64,000 nucleotides of DNA, taken from positions 286,688,001 to 286,752,000 of the forward strand of contig OZ024740.1 of NCBI GenBank assembly GCA_964016885.1, given 5' to 3'. This DNA is from Eledone cirrhosa (Eukaryota). Below, piece by piece: positions 7,203-60,518 of the stretch. The notes below the pieces were generated by a model, which worked only from the letters and a program-made list of their open reading frames with translations, had not been told where the DNA came from and did no database searches. The translations under genes and the position numbers were made by a program. The first letter of the stretch is position 1. Each line of letters opens with the position of its first letter.

Positions 7203-8232
7203 TCTATATATATAAAACAAAGAATGTCTGTGTATCTGTTTCCCTAAAACTCGAGAACTACCCAACCGTTTTTTTTCAAACTTTACACATGTAATACTTA
7301 TGGTCCTATTGAGTGTTCTGAGCAAAAAAAAATTCAAATTTTCAATGCCCTAGGGACCGCATTAGGCGATTTAGCGATCTCTTTCTCTTAGTCTTTCTCT
7401 TTTTAGATAGATACATAGATATGACGTCGCGCCTTCATAATATCTGTTTGTATGCCTGGCTGTCTGCATTACGACATTATGACGCGATCAGTGTGTGTGT
7501 ATATATATTCTTATGTCAGAGAACGTCTTCACGAACCAAAGTATCGTCTTCCTGTTTTCCATCGGTTGCAACGTTTTTCGAAATATTTACATCTGCGTTC
7601 ACAGATTGATTTTTTTTAGTTTCAGAAGATCCCGTTAAGGTTGAAAGTAGCGATTCTTTGCTTAAACATTAATATGTTATTTTAATATAGATATTCGTGT
7701 ACAGATATTTTTGCATACACAAAAACAAAATATAAACAAACAAGGCTGGCGATTACATAATCACTTGCATCACTGACAGATATTTTTGCATACACAAAAA
7801 CAAAATATAAACAAACAAGGCCAACGATTACATCAGTTAGTCTTAGTGTACTTCATACTGTTTTTAGGTAGAAGATCCCGTTAAGGGTGAAAGCAGCGAT
7901 TCATTTTCTGCGTTCACAGATTGATTTTTTTTAGTTTCAGAAGATCCCGTTAAGTGTGAAAGCAGTTGTAGCGACTAGCGCCACCTTGCCCGGGGAGAAA
8001 AAACTAATTGGAGTTACTTCCCGTTGAATTCTAGAAGATTCCTTGAACTTCCGGTCGAGGGATTATAAAGGAGGGAGAAAAGAGACATCTTGGCTTATTT
8101 GGCGACCGGCTCTCGGACAGTTCACTCACGAGCGAGTTTGTTAACCTTATTATATCTGTATCGAATTAAATTAGTGGTTGGCCTGCAGTGGCGTTTACCA
8201 AAGTAAATAACCCTGTGACCAATTCACTAAAG

Positions 8233-9165: not shown

Positions 9166-9880
9166 CCCCTAGTAGCATTAACTATTCGACTTTGAAAAAT
9201 GTTGAACTTATTTTGAGTATTATTTTCCTTGCTCCCTTGTATTGTTTTGAATTGTTCCAGTTACATTTTTCTGCATGTTTATTTTCATACTTTGCTTCTG
9301 TTACAAACCATTGTAATTTATGTACCTTTTGTTTTGCTTGCTCCTTATTCTACGGCTCCTCGCTACAATGACCTTACGGTTATTATCAACTATCGTCTGG
9401 AGGGAAGCCTTGTAGCGACTAGCGCCACCTTGCCCGGGGAGAAAAAACTAATTGAAGTTACTTCCCGTTGAATTCTAGAAGATTCCTTGAACCTCCGGTC
9501 TAGGGATTATAAAGGAGGGAGAAAAGAGACATCTTGGCTTATTTGGCGACCAGCTCTCGGACAGTTCACTCACGAGCGAGTTTGTTAACCTTATATCTGT
9601 ATCGAATTAAATTAGTGGTTGGCCTGCAGTGGCGTTTACCAAAGTAAATAACCCTGTGACCAATTCACTAAACAGTGATTCTTTGCTTAAACTTTAATCT
9701 GTTATTTTAATATATATATATATATATATAATTATATATTCGTGTACAGATATTTTTGCATAGACAATAACAAAATATAAACAAACGTATTTATTTCACG
9801 AGGCTCAATAAGGATAAATATATCTCAAATATATAAGAACCCTAGAGAAAATCCCGAGCAACGCCGGGCCATTCTGCTAG

Positions 9881-10179
9881 TATGTATCTAAAACAGAGAA
9901 TGTCTGTCTGACTCCCTAAAACTCGAGAACCATGCGACTGATTGTTTTCAAACTTTACACATGTAATACTTATGGTCCTGTGAGTGATTTGAGCAAAAAA
10001 TATTTCCAATTTTCAATGCCCTAGGCGATCTAGCGATCTCTCTATATAATTCTTAGTCTTTCTTTTTAGATGGATACATAGATATAACGTTGTACCCTTA
10101 TAATATCTGTCTGTATGTCTGGCTGTCTGCATTATGACGTCGCTATCTGTGTGTGTATATATATATGTATATATTGTGC

Positions 10180-10263
<84 letters not shown>

Positions 10264-10390
10264 AGTGTGTAACGTTTTACGAAATATTTACTTCTGCGTT
10301 CACAGAATGATTTTTTTTAGTTTCAGAAGATCCCGTTAAGGGTGAAAGCAGCGATTCTTTGCTTAAACTTTAATCTGTTATTTTAATATA
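9881..10390 (+). mobile_element. Family B Helitron, 3'-truncated tandem copy
   Basis: Begins right after the CTAG of the previous copy with the same 5' sequence (CTCCCTAAAACTCGAGAAC). Confidence 0.7.
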
Positions 10391-10392
10391 AA

Positions 10393-11319
10393 CTAGCAGA
10401 ATGGCCCGGCGTTGCTCGGGATTTGCTCTAGGGTTCTTAAATATTTAATATATATTTATCCTTATCGAGCCTCGTGAAATAAATACGTTTGTTTATATTT
10501 TGTTATTGAGTATGCAAAAATATCTGTACACGAATATATAATTATATATATATATATATATATAACAGTACAGAGAAGTACGGAACACCTCGGCCTCGGG
10601 ATGGTGTCTACATTTTGTGCTTATAAAAATAATTCGTCGTAGATTACCAGGGGTTTTTTCCGTGCGAAGAAAATCAATACTTTATGGCGAAATAAATACT
10701 TTTGTTTATATTTTGTTATTGTGTATTCAAAAATGATATATATTTATCTTTATCGAGCCTCGTGAAATAAATATGTTTGTTTATATTTTGTTATTGTGTA
10801 TGCAAAAATATCTGTACACGAATATATAATTATATATATATATATATATATAACAGTACAGAGAAGTACGGAACACCTCGGCCTCGGGATGGTGTCTACA
10901 TTTTGTGCTTATAAAAATAATTCGTCGTAGATTACCAGGGGTTTTTTCCGTGCGAAGAAAATCAATACTTTATGGCGAAATAAATACTTTTGTTTATATT
11001 TTGTTATTGTGTATTCAAAAATGATATATATTTATCTTTATCGAGCCTCGTGAAATAAATATGTTTGTTTATATTTTGTTATTGTGTATGCAAAAATATC
11101 TGTACACGAATATATAATTATATATATATATATATAACAGTACAGAGAAGTACGGAACACCTCGGCCTCGGGATGGTGTCTACATTTTGTGCTTATAAAA
11201 AAAATTTGTTGTAGATTACCAGGTTTTTTTTTCTGTGCGAAGAAAATCAATATTTTATCGCGAAATAAATACTTTTGTTTATATTTTGTTATTGTGTATG
11301 CAAACATATTTGTACACGA

Positions 11320-11390
<71 letters not shown>

Positions 11391-11630
11391 TAACAGATTA
11401 AAGTTTAAGCAAAGAATCGCTGCTTTCACCCTTAACGGGATCTTCTGAAACAAAAAAATCAATCTGTGAAGGCAGAAGTAAATATTTCGAAAAACGTTAC
11501 ACACTATATATATATATATATATATATATATTTTCAACATATTGTATTTTAAAGAGCTCAGGATTTCTTCTCCTTTGAGCACATTATTTACAGGGAATGG
11601 CGAGGGCCTATGGCTCCGTTAATTTATCGC

Positions 11631-12011: not shown

Positions 12012-12040
12012 AGATCAAAAGATGGTTAAAGGAGTTCCAT

Positions 12041-12112
12041 GTATTTTATTATGCGCATTTCAAAAACAAACATCATCATGCAATAATATTTGTGTTTTCA
12101 TCAGATAAAACA
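12041..12112 (-). ncRNA. Type I hammerhead in an orphan pLTR-like fragment (about 12005-12455)
   Basis: Minus strand reads GTTTTAT-CTGATGA-[paired stem II CAAATATTATT/GATGATGTTTG]-GAAA-TGCGCA-TA-ATAAAAT. Stem III is the palindrome ATGCGCAT. Confidence 0.72.
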
Positions 12113-12453
12113 GGAGAACATGATATGAAGGCTAAAAAACACTTGTGGATAGTGCAGTTTTAAATCAACATATGAAAAGTGGTTTTAGATTGATGTGTGA
12201 TATTGGGAAAAATATTTTATTTAGAGAGGGGGGGTGGAAAGGATGAAAAGGGAAGGAGATGAGAGGGAGAGATGGGTGATAGAGAGAAAGAGATAGTTTT
12301 TATAACTGAGAGGAGATATATTGTTTTACATAGAGAGGTTGAAAACCGTTGGAAGATAATGTATAAATTAAAAATTTTGAAAATTAACGAAGGGAGAGTG
12401 CTTCTTATCCGATATCTGCATTGCTTTATTGTACTACAATAAAACTCACCTCC

Positions 12454-20689: not shown

Positions 20690-21372
20690 TACGATGGACG
20701 AGTGGACAGAAGTCCCTCAAATTTATATACATGTGAATGGAGTTCTACTGAAGCAGTTAGAGAAGTTCAAGTATCTTGGAGCCCTTTTCATGAGTGATAG
20801 AATGCAGGAGGCTGAATTAAGTGCAAGAATTACAGAAGCCGATGCAGTAAAGCGCCAGCCTCAGCAATCAGATGAAGTGGGGTAGATGTAAAAGCCAAAG
20901 TCGCTGTCTTCCTGGTATTCCTGCCAACTCTTACCGAGGATCATGAATCTTGAGTAATGACCAAAAGAATACAATTGCAAATAAAAGTGGCAGAAATGGG
21001 ATTCCCCCGAAGGGTCTTTGGGGTAACGTTACTCGATAAAGTGCATAGCTCAGAGACCAGAGAGTCACTCCTGGTAGAGCCGCTACTTCTCCGAATTGAG
21101 AGATCACAACTCCGATATTATGAGCATGTGGTAAGAATGTCTCAGTAAAGAATCGCTGGACACATTTTACAGGCAAAACCAACCGGCAAGAGACCCAGAG
21201 GTAGATTCTGAGCAAGATAGTTGGATAACATCCATGAGTTTGGCTAGTCACGCTTTGGGATCCTGCTGGATAAGTTACAGATGTTTGCTACTGACAGACA
21301 CGCTGGAAGGAGTGTTTGAGAAGGACTCTTCCCCCACGATCATCTCAGAAATGAGTGGGTGAAGAAGAAGAT
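20690..21372 (+). mobile_element. RTE-clade LINE 3' fragment
   Basis: FKYLG, AEMGFPRRV and LLRIERSQLRYYEHV motifs, with a (GAA)n tail. Confidence 0.75.
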
Positions 21373-21618
21373 ATTGTCAATTTACATATATCTATATGCA
21401 TATATATTTGCGTATAATACCAATATGCACACTACATATGCTAGCAGAAAACCGCACGATGGGCGGTTTTTCTGCTAGTATATATTATATATATATATAT
21501 ATTAGGATTGGTGCTCTGAAATAGCGATGTATACATGAATGTATGCATAGTATATTTAAAACATTTTGAAGACCTTACGCTATCATTTTTAAAGTAGTCA
21601 CTACGTCACTTACTTCTT

Positions 21619-21703
21619 TTCGGCGAAAGAAGGCAGAGAAGCTAACAGTCTGTTTCATGCTGTTGGCAATCATCAGAGCTACGTACTACCCTCTTCCGCC
21701 GAA
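21619..21703 (-). ncRNA. Type I hammerhead with extended stem I
   Basis: Minus strand reads AGCT-CTGATGA-TTGC-CAACA-GCAT-GAAACAG-A-CTGTT-AGCT. Distal helix TTCGGCGGAAGA/TCTTTCGCCGAA. Confidence 0.7.
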
Positions 21704-21850
21704 ACGGTATATACTATGCATACATTCATGTATACATCGCTATTTCAGAGCACCAATCCTAATACTTAATTTTTTCTGGACCAGCAATCGCTCTGTATAA
21801 TCAGCTCCTGATTATTGCTGGAATTCTATAAGAATCCAGCTTCTATAATC

Positions 21851-21934
21851 TTCGGCGGAAGAGGGAGTACGTAGCTCTGATGATTGCCAACAGCATGAAA
21901 CAGACTGTTAGGATCTCTGGCTTCTTTCGCCGAA
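21851..21934 (+). ncRNA. Type I hammerhead with partly disrupted proximal stem I
   Basis: CTGATGA at 21877 and GAAAC at 21897. The 3' strand reads AGGAT instead of AGCT. Confidence 0.55.
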
Positions 21935-22036
21935 AAGAAGTAAGTGACATACTTTAAAAATGATAGCGTAAGGTCTTCAAAATGTTTTTAATTAAACATA
22001 CGGTATATTGCCAAATATAGTATGCATACATTCATA

Positions 22037-22374
22037 TCTATATATCTAAAACAGAGAATGTATGTCTGTCTGTCTGTCTGACTCCCTAAAACTCGAGAAC
22101 CACCCAACTGATTGTTTTCAAACTTTACACATGTAATACTTATGGTCGTGTGAGTGTTTTGAGCAAAAAGATTTTCAAATTTTCAATGTCCTAGGGATCG
22201 CATTAGACGATTTAGCAATCTCTCTATAATTCTTAGTTTTTCTTTTTAGATAGATACATAGCTACAACGTCGCGCCCTTATAATATCTGTCTGTATGTCT
22301 GGCTGTCTGCATTACGACATTATGACGCTACCTGTGTGTGTGTGTGTGTGCGTGTGTGTATGCATATATAGTGT

Positions 22375-22416
<42 letters not shown>

Positions 22417-22704
22417 TGTAACGTTTTTCGAAATATTTACTTCTGCGTTCACAGATTGATTTTTTAGTTTCAGAAGATCCCGTTAAGGGTGAAAGCAGCG
22501 ATTCTTTGCTTAAACGTTAATCTGTTATTTTAATATATATATATATATATATATAATTATATATTCGTGTACAGATATTTTTGCATACACAATAACAAAA
22601 TATAAACAAACATATTTATTTCACGAGGCTCGATAAGGATAAATATGTATCAAATATATAAGAACCCTAGAGCAAATCCCGAGCAAGCCGGGCCATTCTG
22701 CTAG
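22037..22704 (+). mobile_element. Intact non-autonomous Helitron, family B (668 bp)
   Basis: 5' TC, 3' hairpin plus CTAG, inserted between A and T with no TSD. Confidence 0.8.
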
Positions 22705-22999
22705 TATATATATATGCCACCATTGAAAGCAGGCTTTAAATGATGATATGTGTTTATATTTAACATAAAATAGTAGATAAACATGACTACTTCCCCTTAG
22801 TTTTAATGTTCATACTACTGACTATGGAAAATTCTTCAGATTGATATGATGTGAATAAAGGTTTTTCTCTTGTATTAAATGAAGTATGTTCCATGAAACT
22901 GAAAATCATAGAAAAACAGTCATATTTATCTACTATACTACAATAAATCACTGCTATATAATTACTAAATACAATCTACTAATTATTCTTACTTTTCTT

Positions 23000-23050
<51 letters not shown>

Positions 23051-23053
<3 letters not shown>

Positions 23054-23261
23054 ATATTAATAAATGGAAACTATATTTATAAAACCATAATTATTTTATT
23101 ATATATATTTCAAGGGCGACCAATTATGGTGCGCTTTCATCAGATAAAATACACATTTGTTTTATAAATATTAATATATTTTATATATTTACTCCACTAA
23201 TCTGTTGAGTGCTTTATATCTGTTATAAAAATGTTTAAGCTTGTTGAATCCCAACAACCTC

Positions 23262-23264
<3 letters not shown>
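23051..23264 (-). mobile_element. Short internally deleted copy of the PLE remnant at 25801-27583
   Basis: Both termini match 25801-27583 in reverse complement. Confidence 0.7.
23092..23151 (-). ncRNA. Type I hammerhead ribozyme
   Basis: Minus strand reads TATTTTAT-CTGATGA-AAGCGCACCATAATTGGTCGCCCTT-GAAA-TATATA-TA-ATAAAATA. Confidence 0.72.
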
Positions 23265-23320
<56 letters not shown>

Positions 23321-23325
<5 letters not shown>

Positions 23326-23655
23326 TGTATATTCAATAATATAGTGTATGTTTATTTAAAAACATTTTGAAGGCCATTCGCTATGAATTTTAAGATAGTG
23401 ATTAACGTCACATACCTAACTTCGGCAAAAGCAAAGGGGAGTAATCGACGGTCACTGTTTCTCACTTGTTAGTGGCTGTCAAGACTACATACCTCTTTGC
23501 TTTTGCCAAAAACTATAGAAGCTGGATTCTTATAGAATTCCAGTTATGTTTATGAGCTGTTGAAACTCATTTGCATATAAAGCGGTTGCCGGTCAGCATC
23601 AATTAGAAATTTGTATTGGTGCTCTGAAATAGCGGTGTATATATGAATGTACATA
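23321..23655 (-). mobile_element. Retrozyme-like monomer, 322-bp family, decayed hammerhead core
   Basis: ATGAATGTA at 23321 and 23643. Minus strand reads GTAGTC-TTGACAG-CCAC-TAACAA-GTGA-GAAAC..GTC-GATTAC (23441-23488). Distal helix GGCAAAAGCAAAG/CTTTGCTTTTGCC. Confidence 0.7.
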
Positions 23656-24039
23656 TTGTATATTATATATAATTATATCTTTATATATACAGAGTGGGCA
23701 ACCAAGACTACACCAGTGTGTATATAAACATACACATATTTAATATGTAGGCATGTAAACATGCTTGAAAATATGAATTTCCTTGTAAATTGAGAAAAAG
23801 ATAAACACCTTTAATCAATTTTCACGTGTAATTGGACCCTCATCTGAGAGCCTGTATATCTTCCAAACAACCACAAAGAAACATGTATCTGATGGAATTA
23901 CATACCCATTCACCCGTAGCATTTTTTCTGAAATGGACCCACTAATTTGCATATAATTAGCACTTATGTTGGTATGTGTGTGTGTATGTATATATATATA
24001 GAAGTAGTAACACAATAGTTAGTTCACCATACCGAAAAC

Positions 24040-25560
24040 AAGACGGATTACCCCTTGCGTATGGCTTGGACTTAGTGATAGCTTTCCATTGAATGGAGTA
24101 GTCTACACCTGAGTCTTTGAGGGACCATACATGACTCGCGAGCTTCGTGGACGATCATTTGTCTGGGTACCTAAAGGTCGACTGATGGTTCAGGAAGCAT
24201 TTCAATGGAAAGCTATCACTAAGTCCAAACCATATGCAAGAGGTGATCCGTCTTGTGGACTGTGTATTGAAGAAAGGATCAATTACGCAATAGCAATTGC
24301 CTAAATTCAAGTAATGAACTTTTCTCATGTTGTCATGTCTGTCACAACTTCCTGTGTTTTGTCCAGTGCATTTGCAATAGTAGATCAGCATTTCCACCCA
24401 TTCTCATTGTCTTTTTAGCATCCATTCATTTGTGCATTTGACTTGCCATATACATTTATGAAACCTTGTTTGACAATATTCATGTTGAATAATATGTTTT
24501 TTGGTTCATACTAGATAAACTTTACAAGTGACATTTGGTAAGATGGACTAAAAATTACAGTAAACACTAACCTTACCAATATCAATTTAATAGATATTAA
24601 CTTAGATTTAGCAGCTCGTACCTATAAACTTAGTCACAAGTTTAACGAGAAACTAACAGGGTGCTGCCATCCTCCTGTAGTCTTTAAAAACCTATTCCCC
24701 ATTATTAGTCATAGGATCTCTAACTTATCTTCTTCCAAGGAGGGATTTGATAAGGCAGCCCCTTACTGAAGCAACTTCAAGGATAACATTAAGAATATAC
24801 CCAACCCAATTCCACAAAACAAAAGTAAAAACAAAAATATGGTTCACACCTACTACTCCCTAGCAGTGAAGACTAATGTAGGTAAACAATTCTTAGAAAA
24901 TATTTAAGCATTTCCCCCCTCAACATAGATATTGTAAAATATTCAGTAGGCATTCGGTGAAAAATCAGCTATTCCTGCAGACCTTCCATGAGGTTGAAGA
25001 TAATGCACAACAACAAACCTGAAGAAAACCTAGGATGTTCATGCAGGATAAAAGACGACTGTCTGTTACAACTGAGATGCAATGTCAAATCTATATTGCA
25101 CAAAGCCACTATTACACCAGAAACAGAGCTGCGAACAATATGTGGGTATAGCGCAAGACAGCTTTAAACAATGATACTACTCATACATCGCGTCCTTTTG
25201 GACACTTGGAGAAGAAGACAGCCACAGAACTGGGAACTAAAAGATAAAGGGATACTTTACACAATTAAATGGAGTTTCCTGGATAGGTCCAGACCCTACA
25301 TCAAATAAAATAAGAAGTCTTCATTTTACGTAAACAATAAGTTCTGGATAATACAGGGTTTGAAATCCCTCAATAAATACCTAAACATTATGAACGAGAT
25401 ATTTAGCGGTTGCCTGCACCTCAATTCCCATCTTCTATCAGCATGGGAAAAACAGGCCCAGACATCCAGCATCAACACTCTGCCAATATGTACCCACCTT
25501 AATCCACTATATCAGCCTCACCACCCACACACATCACTCAATATGACAAACCATAAATAA
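24040..25560 (+). mobile_element. Old degenerate PLE remnants (GIY-YIG pieces, RT thumb)
   Basis: QWKAITKSKPYARGDPSCGLCIEE at about 24200-24280, with an inverted copy at 24042-24095. Further pieces HFPPQHRYCKIFSRH, CSCRIKDDC and YVGIAQDSFKQ are broken by stops. Confidence 0.65.
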
Positions 25561-34184: not shown

Positions 34185-34419
34185 AAGGCGGGTAAAATTC
34201 CCGAGATCCATGGACGAGTTCTCTCCAGCGGTCTCTGTCCCTCATTATCGCTGCCATGTCCTGCGTCTCCAACAGACCAGTGTCTGTCCTTAGGGCATCA
34301 ACATATATATATATATATGAATATAGACATAGAATATTCGAAAATATTCTGTATGTTTATAATAAACATTTTGAAGACCTAATCGCTATAGAATAGAATA
34401 CGTCACGTATTACAATTAG

Positions 34420-35438
34420 ATTCTCGATAAAAGCAAGGGAAGTAATCTACGCGTTTCATTCTTGTTAGAATTCATCAGGACTACATATCCAGTGCTTTTA
34501 TCGAGAATGACACAGCTAGAGACTTATAGAATACTTAGCTGTGTACAGGAACTGGTTTGAAAGAGCGGTTGCCGGTCCGGCAGAAATTAGAAATTGGAAT
34601 AAATGCTCTGAAATAGCGATATATATATGAATATAGACATAGAATATTCGAAAATATTCTGTATGTTTATAATAAACATTTTGAAGACCTAATCGCTATA
34701 GAATAGAATACGTCACGTATTACAATTAGATTCTCGATAAAAGCAAGGGAAGTAATCTACGCGTTTCATTCTTGTTAGAATTCATCAGGACTACATATCC
34801 AGTGCTTTTATCGAGAATGACACAGCTAGAGACTTATAGAATACTTAGCTGTGTACAGGAACTGGTTTGAAAGAGCGGTTGCCGGTCCGGCAGAAATTAG
34901 AAATTGGAATAAATGCTCTGAAATAGCGATATATATATGAATATAGACATAGAATATTCGAAAATATTCTGTATGTTTATAATAAACATTTTGAAGACCT
35001 AATCGCTATAGAATAGAATACGTCACGTATTACAATTAGATTCTCGATAAAAGCAAGGGAAGTAATCTACGCGTTTCATTCTTGTTAGAATTCATCAGGA
35101 CTACATATCCAGTGCTTTTATCGAGAATGACACAGCTAGAGACTTATAGAATACTTAGCTGTGTACAGGAACTGGTTTGAAAGAGCGGTTGCCGGTCCGG
35201 CAGAAATTAGAAATTGGAATAAATGCTCTGAAATAGCGATATATATATGAATATAGACATAGAATATTCGAAAATATTCTGTATGTTTATAATAAACATT
35301 TTGAAGACCTAATCGCTATAGAATAGAATACGTCACGTATTACAATTAGATTCTCGATAAAAGCAAGGGAAGTAATCTACGCGTTTCATTCTTGTTAGAA
35401 TTCATCAGGACTACATATCCAGTGCTTTTATCGAGAAT
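34420..35438 (-). ncRNA. Four tandem type I hammerheads (cores 34442-34484, 34752-34794, 35062-35104, 35372-35414)
   Basis: Each is the reverse complement of GTAGTC-CTGATGA-ATTCT-AACA-AGAAT-GAAAC-GC-GTA-GATTAC. Confidence 0.88.
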
Positions 35439-35819
35439 GACACAGCTAGAGACTTATAGAATACTTAGCTGTGTACAGGAACTGGTTTGAAAGAGCGGTT
35501 GCCGGTCCGGCAGAAATTAGAAATTGGAATAAATGCTCTGAAATAGCGATATATATATGAATATAGACATAGAATATTCGAAAATATTCTGTATGTTTAT
35601 AATAAACATTTTGAAGACCTAATCGCTATAGAATAGAATACGTCACGTATTACAATTATAAACATACAGAATATTTTCGAATATTCTATGTCTATATTCA
35701 TATATATATCGCTATTTCAGAGCATTTATTCCAATTTCTAATTTCTGCCGGGCCGGCAACCGCTCTTTCAAACCAGTTCCTGTACACAGCTAAGTATTCT
35801 ATAAGTCTCTAGCTGTGTC

Positions 35820-35907
35820 ATTCTCGATAAAAGCACTGGATATGTAGTCCTGATGAATTCTAACAAGAATGAAACGCGTAGATTACTTCCCTTGCTTTTA
35901 TCGAGAA
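35820..35907 (+). ncRNA. Type I hammerhead ribozyme (array unit)
   Basis: Stem I GTAGTC/GATTAC, CTGATGA at 35850, stem II ATTCT/AGAAT, GAAAC at 35871, palindromic stem III ACGCGT. Predicted cut after 35880. 15-bp distal helix TTCTCGATAAAAGCA/TGCTTTTATCGAGAA. Confidence 0.9.
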
Positions 35908-36129
35908 TCTAATTGTAATACGTGACGTATTCTATTCTATAGCGATTAGGTCTTCAAAATGTTTATTATAAACATACAGAATATTTTCGAATATTCTATG
36001 TCTATATTCATATATATATCGCTATTTCAGAGCATTTATTCCAATTTCTAATTTCTGCCGGACCGGCAACCGCTCTTTCAAACCAGTTCCTGTACACAGC
36101 TAAGTATTCTATAAGTCTCTAGCTGTGTC

Positions 36130-36217
36130 ATTCTCGATAAAAGCACTGGATATGTAGTCCTGATGAATTCTAACAAGAATGAAACGCGTAGATTACTTCC
36201 CTTGCTTTTATCGAGAA
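36130..36217 (+). ncRNA. Type I hammerhead ribozyme (array unit)
   Basis: Identical to 35820-35907, shifted by 310 bp. Predicted cut after 36190. Confidence 0.9.
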
Positions 36218-36386
36218 TCTAATTGTAATACGTGACGTATTCTATTCTATAGCGATTAGGTCTTCAAAATGTTTATTATAAACATACAGAATATTTTCGA
36301 ATATTCTATGTCTATATTCATATATATATCGCTATTTCAGAGCATTTATTCCAATATATATATATATATATATATATACATTTTGA

Positions 36387-59186: not shown

Positions 59187-60518
59187 ATGGAGAACGTTAA
59201 CCACCTGGACACATCTTCTAACACAACCGTTCTTAACGATATAGATTCTGTTTCACAGACACACAGTGGTGAGAAACCTTTACATAGTGAAGCGTTTAAT
59301 AAAAAAAGATCACTACACAGAAATATTCCTGAACATCGCTGTGAGATTTGTAGGAAAACGTTCTCTTCAGAACATGAAGTCTTCACGCACAAAGAAATAC
59401 ACAATAAGCAAAAACTCTATCACTGTGAAATATGTGGGAAATATTTTGTTTATAACAGTATTTTAATAAGACACAAAAGAATACACACTGGAGAAAGATT
59501 GTTTCAATGTGAAATATGTGGGAAATCATTTATTAATAATTCGAATCTTGTTATCCACGTACGTAGTCATACTGGAGAAAAACCGTATCATTGTGAAATA
59601 TGTGGGAAATCTTTCTCTTTTAATACTAGTCTTGTAGTTCACAAACGTCGACATACAGGGGAAAAACCGTATCATTGTGAAATATGTGGGAAATCGTTCT
59701 CTGTTAATATTAGTCTTGTACTTCACAAACGTAGACACAGTGGAGAACAGCCATATCAATGTGGAATATGTGGGAAATATTTTGTCTCTAACAGTAATTT
59801 AACAACACACACAAAAATACATGCTGGAGAAAAACCCTACCACTGTGAAATATGTGGGAAATCATTTTTAAATAACAGTAAATTAGGAACGCACAAACGA
59901 ATACACACTGGAGAACAACCTTACTGCTGTGGAATATGTGGGAAATCTTTTGTTTCTAACAGTAATTTAACAACACACAAAAAATTGCACACGGGTGAAA
60001 AACCCTATCATTGTGAAATGTGTGGTAAATCTTTTGTGAATAACAGTAAATTAACAACACACAAAAAAATACACACTGGGGAAAAACCTCATTGCTGTGG
60101 AATATGTGGAAAAACTTTTATCAGTAATAGTGATTTAAACAGACACAAAAGAATACACACTGGAGAAAACTCTTTCCATTGTGAAATATGTGGGAAATCT
60201 TTCATTGAAAGTTCTAAGCTTACAGTCCACAAACGTAGGCACACTGGAGAAAAACCATATCATTGTGAAATATGTGGGAAATCTTTTGTAAATAATGGTG
60301 ATTTAAAAAGACATGTTCGAATACACACAGGAGAAAAACCATATCACTGTGAAATATGTGGAAAATCATTCTCTGTTAATTCTCATCTTGGAGTTCACAG
60401 ACGTATACACACTGGTGAAAAACCTTGTTGCTGTGAAGTATGTGGGAAAGCTTTCCGCACTAACAGCCTATTAAAAACGCACAAAAAGATACATTCAGTA
60501 GAAAAAACTTATCCATGA
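59187..60518 (+). CDS. C2H2 zinc-finger protein, 14 tandem fingers, 443 aa, single coding exon
   Basis: 14 CxxC-x12-HxxxH repeats, mostly with TGEKPY-type linkers. No KRAB or BTB domain is apparent. A candidate splice acceptor (TTTTTTCAG) ends at 59160. Confidence 0.92.
   Translation: MENVNHLDTSSNTTVLNDIDSVSQTHSGEKPLHSEAFNKKRSLHRNIPEHRCEICRKTFSSEHEVFTHKEIHNKQKLYHCEICGKYFVYNSILIRHKRIHTGERLFQCEICGKSFINNSNLVIHVRSHTGEKPYHCEICGKSFSFNTSLVVHKRRHTGEKPYHCEICGKSFSVNISLVLHKRRHSGEQPYQCGICGKYFVSNSNLTTHTKIHAGEKPYHCEICGKSFLNNSKLGTHKRIHTGEQPYCCGICGKSFVSNSNLTTHKKLHTGEKPYHCEMCGKSFVNNSKLTTHKKIHTGEKPHCCGICGKTFISNSDLNRHKRIHTGENSFHCEICGKSFIESSKLTVHKRRHTGEKPYHCEICGKSFVNNGDLKRHVRIHTGEKPYHCEICGKSFSVNSHLGVHRRIHTGEKPCCCEVCGKAFRTNSLLKTHKKIHSVEKTYP

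What the first reader, a model, noticed from the sequence alone, without database searches (positions are those of the whole stretch)
21501..23655. Two diverged relatives (306 and 322 bp) show structural covariation with the 310-bp element
Seen: all three share the blocks CGCTATTTCAGAGCA, ATAGCG..CTTCAAAATGTTT, TTCTATAAG and ACC(G/A)GCAA(C/T)CGCT. The distal stem I helix differs in sequence but stays paired: TTCTCGATAAAAGCA/TGCTTTTATCGAGAA, TTCGGCGGAAGA/TCTTTCGCCGAA and GGCAAAAGCAAAG/CTTTGCTTTTGCC. Stem II also changes while its loop keeps AACA in all three. Inferred: selection acts on RNA structure in an old, diversified retrozyme family. The AACA loop may contact the stem I internal loop, and the conserved non-HHR blocks may be promoter or RT-recognition signals.
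Basis: partly seen in the sequence, partly recalled or inferred. Interest (0 to 1): 0.75.

Follow-up and report, generated by a model that had tools for sequence, protein, structure and literature searches.

The report
Retrozyme subfamilies keep their ribozyme fold
These are two old, damaged copies of an abundant non-coding mobile repeat of a known kind (retrozymes); across its subfamilies, paired mutations keep a hammerhead RNA fold, including three swaps of a catalytic-core base pair, which likely means the RNA had to cut itself in order to spread (cutting untested).

Summary
The shared blocks and helices are real. The 306- and 322-bp units are decayed copies of two old subfamilies of a ~310-330-bp type I hammerhead retrozyme; one block matches 24,745 times in the genome. 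Covariation holds in a larger sample: 20 of 27 hammerhead pairs change on both sides (slid controls 2-6), and on internal branches 48 of 56 stem changes keep pairing, against 122 of 303 on terminal branches. An all-pairs test alone is not significant (best E 0.33). AACA is not the conserved unit: loop 2 is a Y-(A/U)-A-N-N-A hexaloop like the known Schistosoma loop. The top block is the Penelope-type tail at one end of two-armed insertions in (TA)n. Another block resembles the host's U1/U2/U5 promoter, with moderate support. Cleavage, RNA and the partner element were not shown. Known kind, new member. The scan already reported the young 310-bp family and snRNA-type promoters on other DNA of this genome.

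The parts
21500..21706 (-). Left arm of the subfamily A insertion: unit positions ~113-255, a short internal deletion, the unit end, then the ~25-nt tail running into (TA)n
21602..21706 (-). Hammerhead of the left arm: core CUGAUGA at 21676-21670, GAAA at 21656-21653, predicted cut after GUU between 21644 and 21643; proximal stem I intact; U-U at the base of stem II
21500..21526 (-). Terminal tail that begins with the first shared block (Penelope-type extension found at one arm end only)
21709..22045 (+). Right arm: 29 nt of unit end plus one full 306-bp unit (21738-22043), 3.3% from its subfamily majority; no tail
   Evidence: function inferred
21851..21934 (+). Type I hammerhead of the 306-bp copy: core 21877-21883, GAAA 21897-21900, predicted cut after 21909; two private changes break two pairs of proximal stem I
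23313..23663 (-). Subfamily B insertion, one arm: 29 nt of unit end plus one 322-bp unit (23634-23313) ending in (TA)n; 7.4% from the nearest subfamily majority
23424..23507 (-). Type I hammerhead of the 322-bp copy: U3-A8 core at 23482-23476 with A9G, C-A at the base of stem II, one change in stem III; likely inactive
23566..23576 (-). Octamer box in the subfamily B insert, identical to the box at -76 of one host U6 gene
34309..36355 (.). Young 310-bp family (C): minus arm 35658-34309 (4.4 units, no tail) and plus arm 35655-36355 (2.3 units, tail); reference hammerhead 36131-36217, core 36160-36166

Best explanation
The two units are decayed copies of older subfamilies of a non-autonomous retroelement (metazoan non-LTR retrozyme) whose type I hammerhead fold is kept by compensatory changes between subfamilies, most likely because self-cleavage was needed for spreading. 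Shown: homology, high copy number, at least seven subfamilies 59-98% alike, covariation, three flips of the 3-8 core pair, two-armed insertions in (TA)n with one tail. Inferred: a unit is transcribed, likely from an internal U1/U2/U5-type promoter; successive hammerheads cut out a monomer, helped by the loop 2/stem I contact; the monomer likely circularises; a Penelope-type RT/GIY-YIG enzyme likely nicks (TA)n, engages the RNA at the tail block and copies it from both sides of the break, running through the cut site. Selection acts in the few source lineages; inserted copies such as these two decay neutrally.
For: Copy number: 24,745 exact matches to the 15-nt block, 0 for the reversed control; 3,589 non-C hammerhead matches, 3 in the control; 2,528 exact C cores. 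Pair count on 23 representative copies: 20 of 27 pairs change on both sides, 92% of cells paired; slid structures 2-6 pairs and 35-50%. R-scape-like test on 149 units: 4 of 73 pairs at E<0.05 with a structure folded from three window-type rows only; 6 of 27 hammerhead pairs, against 0-1 when slid. Internal against terminal branches: pairing kept in 48 of 56 against 122 of 303 changes, double changes 17 against 9 (Fisher p about 1e-10 and 2e-9); core changes 0 against 22. Position 3/8: 69 U-A, 63 C-G, 7 mixed, 10 other of 149; three changes forced by well-supported branches, one origin rejected (AU p 3.6e-6). G-U cells 31, A-C cells 4, so the strand matters. Ends: 61 of 76 two-armed insertions have exactly one tail, 14 none, 1 two, the layout described for Penelope-like elements. 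53 of 195 non-C arms exceed one unit and 5' ends do not pile up at the cut site (6 of 185 just after, 4 just before).
Against: No pair reaches E<0.05 when all column pairs are tested (best 0.33); the signal rests on about 17 independent double changes. Two of the six significant pairs are often not Watson-Crick (42% and 66% paired). Outside the hammerhead, covariation is thin (1 of 38 pairs at E<0.05, and 4 of the 38 were mis-registered by me). Rfam gives only 23 bits against a 52-bit threshold for Hammerhead_HH9 and nothing for a subfamily F copy. The base of stem II is mismatched in A1, B and part of C, so activity may be low. No A-to-G excess on the RNA strand (78 against 76). The one Penelope-type family examined shares no sequence with these units. 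The promoter model fails in subfamily B and is weak in C (p 0.16). Many loci were found with a pattern that demands the core, which inflates core conservation.
Confidence: 0.85

Rival explanations
1. The helices are kept perfect at the DNA level by template switching or conversion between arms of near-palindromes, with no selection on RNA.
For: The distal stem I is a 12-bp near-perfect inverted repeat, where such correction can give double changes (established mechanism, recalled). No RNA was seen.
Against: It cannot explain the isolated 3-8 pair flipping three times, the unchanged core on internal branches, the conserved unpaired loop bases or the G-U over A-C bias.
Confidence: 0.05
2. The units are detached pseudo-LTRs of a series of autonomous Penelope-like elements; selection acted on those elements, and the 310-330-bp units are only truncation products.
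For: Same end anatomy as Penelope-like elements. In Xenopus, 24 of 57 retrozyme families matched known elements, nearly all of them Penelope-like, at the pLTR.
Against: Upstream of a full unit the loci carry the end of the same unit or an inverted arm; arrays of up to 25 matches show the unit itself was the template. I did not screen all loci for ORFs, and examined one Penelope-type family only.
Confidence: 0.08
3. A satellite or MITE-like DNA repeat that amplifies by recombination, with a hammerhead remnant that no longer matters.
For: Some arrays are long, and one old array of about 16 diverged units (L222) may have grown at the DNA level.
Against: Fixed 3' ends with random 5' truncation, inverted arms, (TA)n targets and lineage-level covariation.
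Confidence: 0.02

Closest known systems
Metazoan non-LTR retrozymes (Cervera and de la Pena 2020, PMC7229834; passages, sections 15 and 17 read)
   Same: Non-coding ~300-bp units, low GC, canonical type I hammerhead, tandem copies, thousands per genome. Family C has a one-pair stem III with a palindromic tetraloop like axolotl HHR_Amex1; A1 has the U-U stem II base like HHR_Amex2.
   Different: Here at least seven subfamilies form one tree with U3-A8 cores and C-A or A-A stem II bases; most old insertions are short two-armed copies; circular RNA not shown here.
Penelope-like elements and their pLTRs (Craig et al. 2021, 10.1101/2021.04.23.441226, passages and section 11; Cervera and de la Pena 2014, PMC4209133, parts 1-2 of 4; Li et al. 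2026, 10.64898/2026.07.22.740005, parts 1-3 of 5)
   Same: Partial tandems, inverted 5'-truncated copy, tail at one end only, (TA)n targets, type I hammerhead; U3-A8 variant reported in Schistosoma PLE hammerheads.
   Different: No ORF; full hammerhead with loop-loop motif instead of a minimal one; tail about 25 nt against 30-40; partner element not found.
Schistosoma mansoni type I hammerhead and Rfam Hammerhead_HH9 (PMC2632901 and PMC11875169, passages)
   Same: 4-bp stem II, hexaloop (CAAAUA in the paper, CAAAAA in HH9), GUAC-like bulge strand, U seven bases after the cut.
   Different: Position 10.1-11.1 often mismatched; subfamily D has its U shifted to 1.8; 12-bp distal helix; below the Rfam threshold.
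Newt satellite 2 (cited in PMC2220036 and PMC6765202, passages; Coats 1994 itself not held)
   Same: ~330-bp hammerhead repeat with an internal snRNA-type promoter.
   Different: Promoter here rests on sequence and spacing only, and fails in subfamily B.

Membership tests
Type I hammerhead ribozyme | Core C3/U3-U4-G5-A6-N7-G8/A8-A9, G12-A13-A14, A15.1-U16.1, H17 with stem I open | tested here: met
   Each fixed core base in 143-148 of 149 units; H17 is C, U or A in all. The 322-bp window copy has A9G.
Type I hammerhead ribozyme | Three helices supported by covariation | tested here: met
   not significant in the all-pairs test.
Type I hammerhead ribozyme | Loop 2/loop 1 tertiary motif (3' A of loop 2, U1.7, bulged pyrimidine) | tested here: inconclusive
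   Bases conserved: last A 113 of 115, third A 113 of 115; U1.7 in 99 of 107 non-D units, shifted to 1.8 in D. Invariant, so no covariation; contact not shown.
Type I hammerhead ribozyme | Rfam gathering score | tested here: not met
   23 bits against 52 for HH9.
Type I hammerhead ribozyme | Self-cleavage | not testable with these tools
   Needs an in vitro assay.
Metazoan non-LTR retrozyme | Short non-coding unit with one type I hammerhead, in tandem and dispersed high-copy arrays | tested here: met
Metazoan non-LTR retrozyme | Expressed as unit-length linear and circular RNA | not testable with these tools
   No RNA holder listed.
Penelope-mobilised element | Partial tandem plus inverted 5'-truncated copy, tail at one end, microsatellite target | tested here: met
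   61 of 76 two-armed insertions with one tail, ends in (TA)n.
Penelope-mobilised element | Sequence shared with the pLTR of an autonomous element | tested here: inconclusive
   One family examined (24 loci), no shared sequence; other Penelope-type families not searched.
snRNA-type internal promoter (newt satellite 2 kind) | Host proximal element and TATA at host spacing | tested here: inconclusive
   Two-box model picks the same site in 9 of 12 groups; p 0.005-0.02 in D and F, 0.03-0.07 in A, 0.16 in C; fails in the 3 B groups; the third host box does not match.

The most novel reading that the evidence does not exclude
The subfamilies are a natural tuning series of one ribozyme: source lineages repeatedly swapped the 3-8 core pair and weakened the base of stem II or stem III to slow cutting, and the family with the one-pair, dimer-only stem III keeps its circles uncut, so the reverse transcriptase rolls many times and lays long arrays, while families with 3-4-bp stem III give short insertions. 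Ribozyme kinetics would then set insertion length, and each unit would carry its own snRNA promoter.
Probability: 0.2. Interest if true: 0.65.

Novelty: new member of a known kind. Interest (0 to 1): 0.38.

Why it matters
Retrozyme hammerheads are assumed to matter for spreading, but some predicted ones do not cut in vitro (8 of 9 Xenopus dimers). Here the subfamily tree gives a test like dN/dS for a non-coding element: source lineages keep the fold and the core, inserted copies do not. Three flips of one catalytic pair and a graded set of stem II and stem III variants are ready-made material for measuring how much cleavage a retrozyme needs. The kind of element, the U3-A8 variant, the loop motif and the promoter type all have precedents.

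Tried and rejected
DNA search of the genome with the 310-bp unit came back empty, even for the window itself; an exact pattern gave the count. No RNA holder listed; the 340-nt single contigs in three runs equal one unit plus word overlap and arise from tandem DNA or circles alike, so they were not used. All-pairs covariation test: nothing at E<0.05. AACA as a conserved motif: rejected. Pile-up of 5' ends at the cut site, expected for linear cut monomers: not seen. A-to-G editing scars in old copies: none. Neighbouring Penelope-type family as partner: own minimal hammerhead and own tail, no shared sequence. Ungapped 16-nt matches to snRNA upstream regions: no better than shuffles; only the two-box model gave signal. 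One helix near unit positions 203-222 was mis-indexed twice and stays untested. Rows dropped: 1 unrelated hit and 35 near-identical rows of 185; overlapping loci and clusters touching a locus edge, which also removes long arrays, so arm lengths of C and non-C are not a fair comparison. Literature: 7 searches listed no paper on this family; an octopus repeat annotation has no mention of hammerheads (PMC13282606, passages). The cephalopod host assumed in those searches is my guess, not a result. Supplements were not read; those of PMC7229834 and PMC4209133 may list related motifs. Lunse 2017 and Coats 1994 were not held.

Full report
Observation. The window holds three related units: A (21738-22043, plus), B (23634-23313, minus) and the young array C (34309-36355). 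Each folds better than all 100 shuffles. A is the right arm of a two-armed insertion; the left arm has a second hammerhead and the terminal tail. Rfam finds no hammerhead at its threshold; HH9 scores 23 bits on C.

Family. The 15-nt block matches 24,745 times against 0 for the control. The exact C core occurs 2,528 times, its first 100 matches lying in 9 loci. A degenerate pattern that excludes C matches 3,589 times against 3; the B core pattern matches 81 times. From 230 loci and the window I extracted 185 units, kept 149 non-redundant ones and grouped 129 of them into 12 groups in lineages A, B, C, D and F, with a few further types ungrouped. Groups are 59-98% alike, and copies lie 3-7% from their group majority.

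Covariation. My R-scape-like test (G-test with APC, null from substitutions shuffled on the tree; not R-scape itself) finds nothing at E<0.05 over all pairs, although the two best pairs are in stem II and the 3-8 pair ranks seventh. With a structure folded from three window-type rows only, 4 of 73 pairs pass. With 27 hammerhead pairs, whose columns I fixed after seeing the alignment, 6 pass against 0-1 in slid controls. The pair-count tool on 23 representative copies gives 20 of 27 pairs with changes on both sides against 2-6 when slid, and RNAalifold finds the same helices unaided. The sharper test compares branches: on internal branches 48 of 56 stem changes keep pairing and 17 are double; on terminal branches 122 of 303 and 9; core changes are 0 against 22 (many loci were selected by a core pattern). 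G-U cells outnumber A-C cells 31 to 4. Covariation outside the hammerhead is thin.

The core pair. Position 3/8 reads U-A in 69, C-G in 63, mixed in 7 and otherwise in 10 of 149 units. In the B matches 74 of 81 are U3-A8 and none has C3 (hand count). On a tree of 42 copies with both columns masked, three changes are forced and a single origin is rejected. The variant is known in nature and active in vitro (PMC3088659, passages; PMC4209133). I saw no report of repeated flips within one retrozyme family in the searches listed under Tried and rejected.

The loop. AACA is in 47 of 115 parsed loops and 6 of 81 B loops. What is kept is a pyrimidine first, A third and A last (112, 113 and 113 of 115), a U seven bases after the cut (99 of 107 non-D units; shifted by one in D) and a G-U-R-Y strand in the stem I bulge. 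These match the Schistosoma loop CAAAUA and its internal loop, where the last A pairs with that U (PMC2632901; PMC11875169) and the HH9 model. A sequence-distant family in the flanks has the same layout. The contact itself is inferred.

The other blocks. The first block can pair with the ATAGCG block and with the segment after the ACC..CGCT block; these pairs are nearly invariant, so covariation cannot test them. It is also the start of the ~25-nt tail: of 139 insertion clusters, 76 have two outward arms, and 61 of these have exactly one tail, 14 none and 1 two; a few rows may be duplicates. This is the Penelope-type footprint and holds in old and young lineages alike. The TTCTATAAG block lies 25-26 nt after an ATCAG box, as in 12 host U1, U2 and U5 promoters; support is good in D and F, weak in A and C, absent in B, which instead carries a box identical to one at -76 of a host U6 gene. 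I reached this; earlier notes of the scan, seen afterwards, say the same of other families and are not independent support.

Mechanism. Shown: anatomy, covariation, ends. Inferred: transcription from the internal promoter, cutting by successive hammerheads, circularisation, copying by a Penelope-type enzyme from both sides of a nick in (TA)n. 5' ends show no step at the cut site and 53 of 195 non-C arms exceed one unit, so the template was a circle or an uncut multimer. The partner is not identified. Both window copies look damaged: A has two broken pairs in proximal stem I, B has A9G and a stem III change.

Verdict. Interest is moderate. What a specialist may find new is the lineage-level selection test and the thrice-flipped core pair.

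Noticed in passing
window 24023-24330: Two-armed fragment of a Penelope-type element (end of a GIY-YIG-like frame); its family has thousands of candidates, a minimal hammerhead in the 3' region, (TA)n targets and its own tail.
   Followed up: partly
L017:1047-1229, L250, L233, L252, L254 and others: A second, sequence-distant hammerhead repeat with octamer box, TATA 42 nt later, U-U stem II base, UAAUAA/UAACAA loop and palindromic stem III; octamer-TATA spacing equals that of subfamily B.
   Followed up: partly
window 12020-12130 (minus) and about 23100-23160 (minus): Another type I hammerhead with a long stem II, and what looks like a remnant of it lacking stem II.
   Followed up: no
window 22420-22710, also 7570-7965, 9670-11498: A 288-bp repeat carrying a hairpin between a GAAGA and a GAAA segment; hammerhead-like but not canonical.
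   Followed up: no
window 20720-21375: Decayed LINE-like reverse transcriptase end just upstream of the finding (family assignment recalled, not tested).
   Followed up: no
L222 (G000:C1:82389000-82396000): Old array of about 16 diverged subfamily D units, unlike the usual short two-armed D insertions.
   Followed up: no
loop 3 of subfamily D, e.g. L204 and L196: The palindromic tetraloop changes from AGCU to GGCC through GGCU and stays self-complementary, a hint of dimer folding; subfamily F (AGAU) breaks the pattern.
   Followed up: partly
window 59388-60513: Array of 84-bp units that looks like C2H2 zinc fingers (reading recalled).
   Followed up: no
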